The position numbers were made by a program, and so were the translations under genes. A stretch of DNA of 28,028 bases from Escherichia coli (lineage in GTDB: Bacteria; Pseudomonadota; Gammaproteobacteria; Enterobacterales; Enterobacteriaceae): assembly GCF_003334335.1 (NCBI RefSeq), contig NZ_QOWQ01000050.1; one strand, 5' to 3'. Positions 1 to 3,274 of the stretch are shown one piece after another (the stretch's first letter is position 1; each line of letters starts with the position of its first letter). The notes under the pieces are model-generated. The model was not told the DNA's origin. It was given only the letters and a program-made list of their open reading frames with translations, and made no database searches.

Positions 1-197
1 TCCCACTACTTATTTGGTGGACACCACTTTGTCTAATTCGTCAGATTCTGACCAGACGGTTCAGGCTGTACGCTTACGGATATTTCGATGTGTTGTCAAC
101 CACGCTTTTCATCTCTTTTGCCAGCGACAGCATTTTTTCATCGTCATAGGTGAACTGATATTTATCGGTAAGCGTCAACAGAGCGCCGTATTGACAC

Positions 198-1810
198 TTA
201 TTTATCGGTGAAAACTACGTTCCATGGCAGCAGTTCGTCAACACGGTTGGAGGGCCATTCCGGCAGTACGCTCAGGATATGGCGCAGATACGCTTCTGGA
301 TCGATACCGTTCAACCGACAGCTCCCGATTAGTCCGTACAGCAGAGCTCCGCGCTCGCCTCCATGATCGTTGCCGAAGAACATGTAATTCTTTTTCCCGA
401 GACAGACGGCACGAAGCGCTCTTTCTGCTGTGTTATTGTCCGCCTCCGCCAGACCGTCATCACTGTAATAACAGAGGCCGTCCCACTGATTCAGGACATA
501 GCTGAACGCTTCGCCCAGTCTGGATTTTTTCGACAACGTGCCATTCTTCTCCACCATCCATTCATGCAGCGACGTCAGTAACGCTTTGCTTCGCTGCTGC
601 CTGGCTGCAAGACGTTCAGACTCCGGTAAGCCCCGTATTTCATCCTCGATGGCGTACAGTTCACTGATTCGCTTCAGAGCTTCTTCTGCCGTCGTACTTT
701 TGCTGCTGATGTATACATCGTGTATTTTTCGCCGGGCATGGACCCAGCACGCAACTTCTGTCTGTGCACCACCTTCACGTTTGGCACTGAACAGCCGATC
801 GTAACCGCTGAATGCATCCGCCTGCAGGATACCCCGGAAGGGACGAAGGTGTTGTACCGGATGTTTTCCCTGCCTGTCTGGTGAGTAGGCGAACCAGACC
901 GCCGGTGGCTCTGATGAGCCCGCATTCCGGTCATCCCGGACATACGTCCAGATGCGTCCTGTTTTTGCCTTTTTTCTGCCCGGTGTCAGCACTTTTACCG
1001 GTGTGTCGTCAGTGTGAACCTTGCGGGTGTTCATTACATAACGGTACAGGGCATCATTCAGCGGAGTCATTAACTGGCAGCACGCGTCAACCCAGTTGGA
1101 GATTAATGCACGGCTCAGTTCGGCACCCTGTCGGGCAAAGATTTCACTCTGACGATACAGTGGCAGGTGTTCGCAGTATTTTCCCGTTAACACGCGGGCA
1201 AGTAATCCGGAGCCCGCGATGCCGCGCGCTATCGGGCGGGACGGCGCTGGCGCTTCAACTATATAGTCACATTTTGTACAGGCTTTTTTTACCCGAACAG
1301 TGCGGATCACTTTCAGGGCGCTACTCACCAGTTCCAGTTGCTCAGCACTGACTTCACCCAGATAATCCAGCTCACTGCCACACTCCGGGCAACAACTTTC
1401 TTCAGGCTCCAGGCGGTGTATTTCACGGGGAAGATGTGCTGGTAACGGACGACGATGACGTGACTGTCGCAACTGGCGGGGAACCTGCGGGTCATCCTCA
1501 CTCCCACTGTAACGATCGCTTTCCTGTTCGCGTTGTTTCAGTTGGGCCTCAGCCTGTTCAACCTCACGCTGCAGTTTTTCAGAACGGGTACCGAACAGCA
1601 TCCGGCGCAGTTTTTCTATCTGGGCCCTCAGATATTCTATTTCCCGCTCCTCCTCTTCGATCTTTTCTTCGGCACGTGCCAGTGCAGAGCGCAGGAAGGC
1701 CCCGTCTCTTCAACCAGACTCAGTTGCAGATCTCTCTGACGGAGGGCTTCAGCCTGCTCAGAGAGCAGCCTTTCCAGCTCAGTGATACGAATGAGGTATT
1801 TCCGACTCAT
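198..1810 (-). pseudogene. tnpC: IS66-family transposase TnpC, disrupted by a frameshift
   Basis: N-terminal 57 codons (MSRKYLIRITELERLLSEQAEALRQRD...) from the ATG at 1810 run into a stop at 1637-1639. The remaining 467 codons (ORF 198-1601, MLFGTRSEKLQ...LPWNVVFTDK) are in another frame that is open up to a stop at 1710-1712. The shift therefore lies in 1640-1709, most likely a 1-bp deletion near 1700. Confidence 0.8.
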
Positions 1811-1840
1811 GACCGTTTTTATAATCCGGCCATGACATTT

Positions 1841-2191
1841 TTACAACATTGTCAGTGCGTTAAGACGGGATGTTTTTGGCTGACGCCAGTCCAGCTTATC
1901 GAGGAGCATTGCCAGCTGCGAGCGGGTAATGGATACCTTACCGTCACGCACCGCAGGCCAGATAAACTGGCCTTCCTCCAGGCGTTTGGTGAACAGGCAC
2001 AGACCATCAGCATCAGCCCAGAGGATTTTAATCATGTTACTCCGTCGGCCACGGAAGATGAACAGGTGACCGGAGAAGGGGGTCTCATCCAGCACATGTT
2101 GTACCTGTTCACCCAGACCGTTGAAGGATTTACGCATATCAGTAACGCCGGCAACCAGCCAGATTCGAGTGTCTGATGGGAGCGAGATCAT
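1841..2191 (-). CDS. tnpB: IS66-family accessory protein TnpB (orf2)
   Basis: 116-aa ORF (MISLPSDTRIWLVAGVTDMRKSFNGL...) characteristic of IS66 orf2; start overlaps the tnpA stop by 4 nt. Confidence 0.85.
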   Translation of the reverse strand: MISLPSDTRIWLVAGVTDMRKSFNGLGEQVQHVLDETPFSGHLFIFRGRRSNMIKILWADADGLCLFTKRLEEGQFIWPAVRDGKVSITRSQLAMLLDKLDWRQPKTSRLNALTML

Positions 2192-2613
2192 CGCCCCCTC
2201 CCGGTCAGTTCACGGATCAACACCGTGAGCAGCTCTGGTGAAGGATTTTCCAGCGTCATGTTACCGTGGCGGAACTCAACTTTACAGGAACTGGCACTGA
2301 CTGTGCTTTGTGAAGGAGTGGATAAAAGCGGAGTAAGAGCCGCCATAGGCTCTTTCTGCTCATCAGGCGTTATCTCAACAGGTAATAATTCAACGCCAGC
2401 GCCAGAAGAGGTTGTTACCGGAAGACGCCGCGATATACGCCCTTCGTTCTGCCAGAGCCTGAGCCATTTGAACAGGAGGTTATCATTGATATCGTGTTCC
2501 CTGGCAATACGGGCAACAGAGGCTCCTAGTTGTGAAGCCAGTTTAACCATTTGAAGTTTAAACTCATTTGAAAATGTTCTGCGGGGTTCTGCGGATAATA
2601 TTTTCTGTTCCAT
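2188..2613 (-). CDS. tnpA: IS66-family accessory protein TnpA (orf1)
   Basis: 141-aa ORF (MEQKILSAEPRRTFSNEFKLQMVKLASQLGASVARIAREHDIN...) with helix-turn-helix-like N-terminus typical of IS66 orf1; first gene after the terminal repeat. Confidence 0.85.
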   Translation of the reverse strand: MEQKILSAEPRRTFSNEFKLQMVKLASQLGASVARIAREHDINDNLLFKWLRLWQNEGRISRRLPVTTSSGAGVELLPVEITPDEQKEPMAALTPLLSTPSQSTVSASSCKVEFRHGNMTLENPSPELLTVLIRELTGRGR

Positions 2614-3274
2614 AACAGGTGTCCACTAGTTGATGAAAAGGTGGGCACCTACGTTACCAATACTGGCTTAATGGCTACATACGGCGGTCAGTTTACGCTT
2701 ACCATGTATCTGGCGAGTGAAGCTTTATGTCGTGTTCTGGCGTGTCCTGTGTTAGTTAGAACACGCCATCGATGGTCAGCAGGTTCATATTGCACCAGAG
2801 CGGATACAGCGTGGTGTTATGTCAGGGCTGCGCTGTTTACGTGAACACGTGGCGTACGGCCCCGCTTCCTGGCCGCTGCTGGGCATGGATCACGGCGCGA
2901 CAAAGGGGCGACTACCTGGCAGCATGTGTCCAGCCGGTTCACAATCTGGTGAAGGTTCCTTACGCTCATGGGCCATACTGATAATTCACCAGGCCATCAT
3001 TTCCAGAGGAAGACGCCGTTTGCGTAGCGTGACAGTGTCGGACTCTTCAGGGCTGTGGGTAATCAGTTCCGGGGCAAGATAGTCGCAGAGGGTTACGCAG
3101 AGAATGGTAACTGGACACTGGATCGATCAACCGATCCTTAACTGAGCGGCATGACAGCTTTCTGATGGTTTTTTTTTGATAATCTTCACATTGTGCTTCT
3201 TTTCTGTTGGATAATCTTTGTACTTGGTGGTGTACTAGGTATCCCATTATGCAGTTAAGTGAAGGTGATTAAAA

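What the first reader, a model, noticed from the sequence alone, without database searches (positions are those of the whole stretch)
1640..1712. IS66 tnpC is split by a frameshift, so copy 1 is probably not autonomous
The TnpC N-terminus (57 codons from the ATG at 1810) and the remaining 467 codons are in different frames. The two frames overlap only in 1640-1709, so the indel lies there, most likely a single-base loss near 1700 where frame A reads LVEETGPSC and frame B reads AFLRSALARAEE. The downstream frame begins with Met (MLFGTRSEKLQ), so an N-terminally truncated product is conceivable. Transposition of this copy would probably need TnpC supplied in trans, for example by the second copy.
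Basis: partly seen in the sequence, partly recalled or inferred. Interest (0 to 1): 0.4.

Follow-up and report, generated by a model that had tools for sequence, protein, structure and literature searches.

The report
Frameshifted IS66-family transposase gene
One copy of a common E. coli jumping gene (IS66 family) has lost a single base in its transposase gene, so it can no longer make the full enzyme; this is an ordinary, strain-private defect, or possibly a sequencing error.

Summary
An IS66-family element (168-2702, minus strand; tnpA, tnpB, tnpC) has its tnpC split into a 57-codon ORF (1810-1637) and a 467-codon ORF (1601-198) in different frames.

Alignment to the same element at the same chromosomal site in 99.9%-identical E. 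coli genomes places the lesion exactly. One A is missing from codon 37 (intact ACG-GAG-GCC, window ACG-GGG-CC, between 1702 and 1701). The intact gene encodes 537 aa. The shift precedes all Pfam domains (LZ, zinc finger, DDE, C-terminal).

The allele is a singleton:
- It is absent from 5,426 complete E. coli genomes, from the species-representative genome set and from metagenome contigs. The intact allele was found in every one of these collections.
- It is absent even from sister draft assemblies that share this copy's two SNPs.
- The only other record carrying it is draft contig LYBF01000345.1.
- It is the only indel in about 28 kb against the closest genome.

The most likely reading is a recent private loss-of-function mutation, which leaves the copy dependent on TnpC supplied in trans. 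A consensus error cannot be excluded without reads. Nothing supports programmed recoding. This is an ordinary decayed IS and of low interest.

The parts
168..2702 (-). IS66-family insertion sequence, copy 1 (2,535 bp), related to IS682/ISEc23. Gene order is tnpA-tnpB-tnpC.
   Evidence: The terminal repeats both begin GTAAGCGT, at 2702 (minus strand) and 168 (plus strand). The element is 99.9% identical to the element at the same site in NZ_CP145707 and NZ_CM129862. PGAP names for close copies are 'IS66-like element IS682 family' and 'ISEc23 family'.
2673..2702 (-). Left terminal inverted repeat: GTAAGCGTAAACTGACCGCCGTATGTAGCC.
   Evidence: It is identical to the repeat in the intact orthologues, because the only differences across 150-2700 are at 2038, 1702/1701 and 1338.
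168..197 (+). Right terminal inverted repeat, read inward on the plus strand: GTAAGCGTCAACAGAGCGCCGTATTGACAC.
2188..2613 (-). tnpA (141 aa), intact.
   Evidence: NF047595 IS66 TnpA, 80 bits. It is annotated as tnpA in the orthologue.
1841..2191 (-). tnpB (116 aa), intact. It overlaps tnpA at ATGA and carries the lineage SNP D52N at 2038.
   Evidence: NF033819, 119 bits. The SNP is shown. The same allele is on 10 draft contigs.
1637..1810 (-). 5' fragment of tnpC. It has 36 native codons, then 21 out-of-frame codons, then TAG.
1700..1703 (-). Site of the 1-nt deletion. The GGGG run here was created when the A of codon 37 (GAG) was lost between 1702 and 1701.
   Evidence: Alignments.
198..1709 (-). 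The remainder of tnpC in the shifted frame, corresponding to residues 38-537 of the intact protein. The first possible start is ATG 1601-1599 (Met71), which gives 467 aa.
   Evidence: The Pfam domains LZ, zf-IS66, DDE_Tnp_IS66 and DDE_Tnp_IS66_C all lie here.
27738..28028 (-). Right end (terminal repeat plus 3' end of tnpC) of a paralogous IS66-family copy, cut by the window edge.
   Evidence: It is 89% identical to 167-457. Its terminal repeat is at 27739. In NZ_CM129862 it is a complete tnpABC with a 537-aa TnpC.
1..77 (-). Left terminal repeat and first bases of a third, more distant IS66-family element. It begins 90 bp downstream of copy 1.
   Evidence: GTAAGCGTACAGCCTGAACCGTCTGG starts at 77 on the minus strand. 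In relatives it continues as tnpA/tnpB/tnpC, and its 512-aa TnpC is 61% identical.

Best explanation
tnpC of this IS66-family copy carries a genuine, very recent single-nucleotide deletion: the A of codon 37 is lost, so GAG becomes G-G. Translation from the normal ATG (1810) shifts frame after Thr36 and stops at TAG 1639-1637. The product is a 57-aa peptide with no zinc-finger or DDE domain. tnpA, tnpB and both terminal repeats are unchanged. The copy therefore cannot supply its own transposase and could move only if a compatible TnpC came from another copy. Shown: the deletion, its exact position, the domain loss, and that the allele is private to one strain or assembly. Inferred: that the deletion is real rather than an error, and that loss of TnpC abolishes transposition. 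The second inference rests on established knowledge of IS679, where each of tnpA, tnpB and tnpC is needed (Han et al. 2001, J Bacteriol 183:4296). I recall that paper from memory; it was not readable here.
For: The orthologous copy at the same locus has an uninterrupted 1,614-nt tnpC encoding 537 aa in NZ_CP145707, NZ_CP060083 and NZ_CM129862. The window's tnpC is 1,613 nt and lacks one A. Sister draft contigs share both SNPs of this copy (1338 and 2038) and differ inside the IS only by that base. The deletion is the only indel between the window and its closest complete genome, alongside 10 substitutions and one repeat-number change over about 28 kb, so the sequence is not indel-prone. The ancestral site GGAGG is not a homopolymer. 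None of 7,989 places in 5,426 E. coli genomes carries the deletion, and neither does the flanking paralogue L006. Reads from other IS copies therefore cannot have introduced it by mis-assembly. The same deletion is in GenBank contig LYBF01000345.1. That contig ends at window position 57, so the window comes from a differently bounded record. The frameshift lies upstream of every Pfam domain.
Against: The allele is a singleton. It had 0 exact hits in genome contigs and metagenome contigs, whereas the intact allele had 3 hits and at least 120 hits. It was also absent from every other fetched locus in which the site was checked (L001-L004, L006-L009 and L011-L020). That pattern is also what a consensus error in one isolate's data would give. 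The two records that carry it may derive from the same isolate or the same reads; their independence is unknown. No reads are available here.
Confidence: 0.66

Rival explanations
1. The missing base is a sequencing or consensus error in one isolate's data. The real element has an intact 537-codon tnpC and is as autonomous as its orthologues.
For: The allele occurs only in the window and in one fragmented draft assembly: GCA_002190205.1, contig 345, 28 kb. It is absent from thousands of other copies, including the closest sisters. The resulting sequence is a 4-G run, and IS copies are repeats where consensus calling is weakest.
Against: There is no other indel in about 28 kb against the nearest complete genome. 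The ancestral context GGAGG is not a homopolymer, so the usual length-miscount error does not apply. No paralogue carries the deletion, so repeat collapse cannot explain it. Two records with different ends agree on it.
Confidence: 0.3
2. The split is functional. Either ribosomes shift -1 at the site to make full-length TnpC, or the Met71 ORF (467 aa) is expressed by reinitiation and acts as a transposase or as a regulator.
For: The downstream frame begins with ATG 35 nt after the frame-A stop codon, so termination-reinitiation is physically possible. The 467-aa product would keep most of LZ and all of the zinc-finger, DDE and C-terminal domains. Invariant columns in the alignment of the three IS66-family TnpCs with the window's 467-aa ORF start at Met71, though that ORF, which begins there, is one of the four aligned sequences.
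Against: Every other copy examined has one continuous frame, so the split is not a conserved design. There is no X XXY YYZ slippery heptamer in the overlap. No Shine-Dalgarno sequence sits 5-12 nt before ATG 1601; the nearest GAGGG is 24-28 nt upstream. The product would lack residues 1-70, including the first 10 residues of the LZ domain and a QLSLV motif.
Confidence: 0.03

Closest known systems
IS66-family insertion sequences of E. coli close to IS682 and ISEc23 (tnpA-tnpB-tnpC type; prototypes IS66 and IS679)
   Same: It has three genes in the canonical order with the tnpA/tnpB ATGA overlap. TnpC has LZ, zf-IS66, DDE_Tnp_IS66 and C-terminal domains. The terminal repeats begin GTAAGCG. DNA copies about 98% identical are named IS682 family by PGAP, and members of the same 90%-identity protein cluster are named ISEc23 family.
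   Different: This copy has a 1-nt deletion in codon 37 of tnpC and has no matching 8-bp target duplication; its flanks are GATACATG and CGATAAAT. ISfinder could not be queried, so the exact IS name is not settled.
The orthologous copy at the same site in other E. coli carrying the sialic-acid/aerobactin/iha island (for example NZ_CM129862 and NZ_CP145707; TnpC WP_032218830.1)
   Same: The insertion site, flanks and terminal repeats are identical. The element differs at only 3 positions in 2,551 nt.
   Different: The orthologues have an intact 537-aa TnpC, and that exact protein is on 206 contigs. The window has the frameshift plus two lineage SNPs.
Frameshifted transposase pseudogenes as routinely annotated by PGAP ('frameshifted' IS66-family transposase)
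   Same: A single indel interrupts a transposase ORF in a resident IS. Neighbouring IS remnants in the same island are annotated this way.
   Different: Nothing of substance. Here the decay is minimal, one base, and private to one strain.

Membership tests
IS66 family (tnpABC type) | Three consecutive ORFs, tnpA, tnpB and tnpC, with the tnpB start overlapping the tnpA stop (ATGA). | tested here: met
   The ORFs are 2613-2188, 2191-1841 and 1810-198, with a 4-nt overlap at 2191-2188. NCBIfam hits were IS66 TnpA (80 bits), IS66_TnpB (119 bits) and transpos_IS66 (438 bits).
IS66 family (tnpABC type) | TnpC carries the DDE_Tnp_IS66 catalytic domain, preceded by a leucine-zipper region and a zinc finger. 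| tested here: met
   Pfam hits on the restored protein were LZ_Tnp_IS66 61-130, zf-IS66 138-182, DDE_Tnp_IS66 196-486 (E 4e-95) and DDE_Tnp_IS66_C 494-530. The same families are recorded for the window's own 467-aa ORF.
IS66 family (tnpABC type) | Imperfect terminal inverted repeats of about 20-30 bp beginning 5'-GTAAGCG. | tested here: met
   GTAAGCGTAAACTGACCGCCGTATG is at 2702 (minus strand) and GTAAGCGTCAACAGAGCGCCGTATT is at 168 (plus strand).
IS66 family (tnpABC type) | An 8-bp direct target-site duplication flanking the element. | tested here: not met
   The flanks GATACATG and CGATAAAT differ. The element sits between a degraded transposase remnant and another IS66-family element. The duplication was probably lost through nested insertion or inter-IS recombination. 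This bears on the history of this copy, not on family membership.
Autonomous (self-mobilising) IS copy | An uninterrupted transposase reading frame. | tested here: not met
   A 1-nt deletion in codon 37 gives a stop after 57 codons.
Autonomous (self-mobilising) IS copy | Demonstrated transposition. | not testable with these tools
   This needs a mating-out or papillation assay.
Programmed ribosomal frameshift in a transposase (IS1/IS3 style) | The two-frame arrangement is conserved among relatives, with a slippery motif in the overlap. | tested here: not met
   All relatives examined have a single frame: the best matches in 3,955 E. coli records all contain the extra base, as do the sister and paralogous loci and at least 120 metagenome contigs. 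No slippery heptamer was seen in 1640-1709.

The most novel reading that the evidence does not exclude
The deletion is real, and the 467-aa Met71 product is made at a low level by termination-reinitiation. It lacks the N-terminal 70 residues, including a QLSLV motif that resembles the beta-clamp-binding consensus QLSLF. It would then act in trans on the neighbouring IS66-family copies as a dominant-negative or altered-specificity transposase, comparable to the Tn5 inhibitor protein.
Probability: 0.03. Interest if true: 0.3.

Novelty: already known. Interest (0 to 1): 0.05.

Why it matters
It matters little beyond correct annotation. The gene should be flagged as a frameshifted IS66-family transposase pseudogene, and the 467-aa ORF (deposited as OWD55351.1, 'transposase') should not be treated as a normal protein. 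If the deletion is real, it marks the first step of IS decay in one lineage: one of the three IS66-family elements around the sialic-acid/aerobactin/iha island becomes dependent on a transposase from elsewhere. It does not change how the island is understood and opens no new question.

Tried and rejected
- **Programmed frameshifting or recoding.** Rejected, because every relative has one continuous frame and the overlap contains no slippery motif.
- **Mis-assembly from paralogous IS copies.** Rejected as the source of the deletion, because no paralogue carries it. The synonymous SNP at 1338 does match the right-hand paralogue's base, but it is shared by sister assemblies, so it is a lineage allele.
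- **A second inactivating hit in tnpB (D52N, 2038).** Not supported. The position varies among paralogues (D/D/S/D), and the allele is shared by 10 contigs whose tnpC is otherwise intact.
- **Finding the window's source record or an independent carrier of the deletion.** Not achieved.
  - The 131-nt probe against E. coli genomes gave at best 99.2% identity, so every match has the extra base.
  - The exact 36-mer gave no hit in genome contigs or metagenome contigs.
  - The exact look-up of the 57-aa peptide found nothing.
  - The look-up of the esterase allele was uninformative, because that allele is very common.
- **Reading Han et al. 2001 (PMC95320).** The paper is not held.
- **Checking whether the clamp-binding peptides of Gomez et al. 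2014 include QLSLV.** No supplement is held.

Full report
**What is in the window.** The left 2.7 kb carries, on the minus strand, a complete IS66-family element.
- tnpA lies at 2613-2188 (141 aa) and tnpB at 2191-1841 (116 aa). The two overlap at ATGA.
- tnpC starts at ATG 1810 and ends at the stop codon at 198.
- NCBIfam recognises all three genes: IS66 TnpA at 80 bits, IS66_TnpB at 119 bits and transpos_IS66 at 438 bits.
- The element is bounded by imperfect terminal repeats that begin GTAAGCG, at 2702 (minus strand) and 168 (plus strand), which makes it 2,535 bp long.
- The rest of the window is an E. coli island with a sialic-acid catabolism cluster, iucABCD-iutA and iha.
- The end of a second IS66-family copy lies at 27738-28028. 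The start of a third lies at 1-77.

tnpC is split into a 57-codon ORF (1810-1637) and a 467-codon ORF (1601-198) in a different frame. Frame A ends at TAG 1639-1637, and frame B is closed upstream by TGA 1712-1710.

**Pinpointing the lesion.** The same element sits at the same chromosomal site, next to the N-acetylneuraminate lyase gene, in many E. coli genomes at 99.8-99.9% identity. There PGAP annotates tnpC as one uninterrupted 1,614-nt gene of 537 aa, WP_032218830.1.
- The window's tnpC is 1,613 nt. Alignment shows three differences from NZ_CP145707 over 2,551 nt: two substitutions (2038 and 1338) and one missing base.
- The missing base is the A of codon 37. The intact sequence reads ...GAA GAG ACG GAG GCC TTC..., and the window reads ...GAA GAG ACG GGG CCT TCC.... 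The base is lost between window positions 1702 and 1701.
- The product from the normal start therefore has 36 native residues, 21 out-of-frame residues and a stop.
- The remark that the site is a C/G run needs correcting. The GGGG run at 1703-1700 was created by the deletion. The ancestral sequence is GGAGG, so the change is not a miscount of an existing homopolymer.

**Consequence for the protein.** Pfam on the restored protein places LZ_Tnp_IS66 at 61-130, zf-IS66 at 138-182, DDE_Tnp_IS66 at 196-486 and the IS66 C-terminal element at 494-530. The shift at codon 37 precedes all of them, so nothing catalytic is translated from the normal start.
- The downstream frame has no start codon before ATG 1601 (Met71).
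- No Shine-Dalgarno sequence lies at a working distance from that ATG. The nearest GAGGG is 24-28 nt upstream, and the frame-A stop is 35 nt upstream. Any truncated product would depend on inefficient reinitiation.
- tnpA, tnpB and both terminal repeats are identical to those of intact orthologues, apart from one missense change in tnpB.

**How widespread the allele is.** It is a singleton.
- A 131-nt probe across the site matched 3,955 records and 7,989 places in 5,426 complete E. coli genomes. The best identity was 99.2% over 132 record bases, so every match contains the extra base.
- The exact 36-mer with the deletion has no match in the 100,044-species genome set or in the metagenome contigs.
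- The exact 467-aa ORF is on record for one contig only: LYBF01000345.1 of draft assembly GCA_002190205.1, protein OWD55351.1. The exact intact 537-aa protein is on 206 contigs.
- The tnpB missense allele (D52N, 2038) is shared by 10 draft contigs at the same locus. Three of these sisters were read. They share both SNPs of the window's IS, and inside the IS they differ from it only by having the A.
- Every other fetched locus in which the site was checked has the intact allele, including the right-hand paralogue.

**Real mutation or error?** This cannot be settled without reads. I favour a real mutation at roughly two to one, for four reasons.
- The deletion is the only indel between the window and its closest complete genome, alongside ten substitutions and one 8-nt repeat-number difference, so the sequence is not indel-prone.
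- The ancestral context is not a homopolymer.
- No paralogue carries the deletion, so mixing reads from other copies cannot have produced it.
- The GenBank contig that shares it ends at window position 57, while the window continues colinearly with related genomes. Two differently bounded records therefore agree.

Against this, both records may derive from one isolate, and a private singleton inside a repeat is also what a consensus error looks like.

**Mechanism and rivals.** The best-supported reading is ordinary IS decay. A private 1-nt deletion knocks out TnpC and leaves a copy with intact ends and accessory genes. Such a copy could move only with TnpC supplied in trans.
- That tnpC is required is established for IS679 (Han et al. 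2001, J Bacteriol 183:4296). I recall this from memory, as the paper was not readable here.
In relatives the right-hand paralogue encodes a 537-aa TnpC that is 87% identical, and its right terminal repeat differs from that of copy 1 at 3 of 30 positions.
- Programmed frameshifting is rejected, because all relatives have one continuous frame and the overlap contains no slippery motif.

**Comparison with what is known.** The element meets the defining features of the IS66 family that could be tested: gene order and overlap, the TnpC domain set, and GTAAGCG terminal repeats. The exception is the 8-bp target duplication, since the flanks GATACATG and CGATAAAT differ. That fits its position between a degraded transposase remnant and another IS66-family element. 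DNA copies about 98% identical are named IS682 family by PGAP, and members of the same 90%-identity protein cluster are named ISEc23 family. The exact ISfinder name could not be checked. A frameshifted transposase in a resident IS is a routine annotation category.

**Verdict.** The feature is an ordinary, strain-private pseudogenising deletion, or possibly a sequence error. Interest is low.

Noticed in passing
window 1712-1726 (minus strand), TnpC residues 29-33: The N-terminal region reads QLSLV, one residue away from the beta-sliding-clamp-binding consensus QLSLF. Gomez et al. 2014 (PMC3971601) report clamp-binding motifs in IS66 TnpC upstream or downstream of the LZ domain. The motif is kept in the 57-aa fragment and would be missing from any Met71 product. 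It is conserved in the right-hand paralogue and absent in the third. I could not check whether it is the peptide they tested.
   Followed up: partly
window 2038 (tnpB codon 52): There is a missense change D52N in TnpB relative to all complete E. coli genomes; the best of 805 records is 98.8% identical. It is a real lineage allele found on 10 draft contigs at the same locus. The position varies among paralogues.
   Followed up: yes
window 160-167 and 2703-2710: IS66 copy 1 has no matching 8-bp target-site duplication; the flanks are GATACATG and CGATAAAT. It lies between a degraded transposase remnant (about 2703-3250) and another IS66-family element that starts 90 bp downstream. This suggests nested insertion or inter-IS recombination.
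   Followed up: partly
window 1-77 and 27738-28028: The 25-kb island (sialic-acid catabolism cluster, iucABCD-iutA, iha) is bracketed by two IS66-family copies in the same orientation. They are 86-89% identical in DNA and 87% in TnpC, giving a composite-transposon-like layout. A third IS66-family element (TnpC 61% identical) abuts copy 1.
   Followed up: partly
window 23134-23190: A perfect 8-nt tandem repeat, TTTCGTAG x 7.1, lies in the gene-poor stretch between iutA and iha. The closest complete genome, NZ_CM129862, is 32 nt longer here, equal to four more units.
   Followed up: partly
window 21842-21870 (+) and 21669-21712: An isolated IS66-like terminal repeat, GTAAGCGTCGTCTCAGCACCGTCTGG, lies just downstream of iutA, near a 16-nt x 2.8 tandem repeat. 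It is probably the scar of an older IS66-family element.
   Followed up: no
whole window versus GenBank LYBF01000345.1: The only public record found with the same frameshift is a 28,039-nt draft contig that is offset from the window by 56 nt. The contig ends at window position 57. The window therefore comes from a different record of the same or a near-identical strain, which was not identified.
   Followed up: partly
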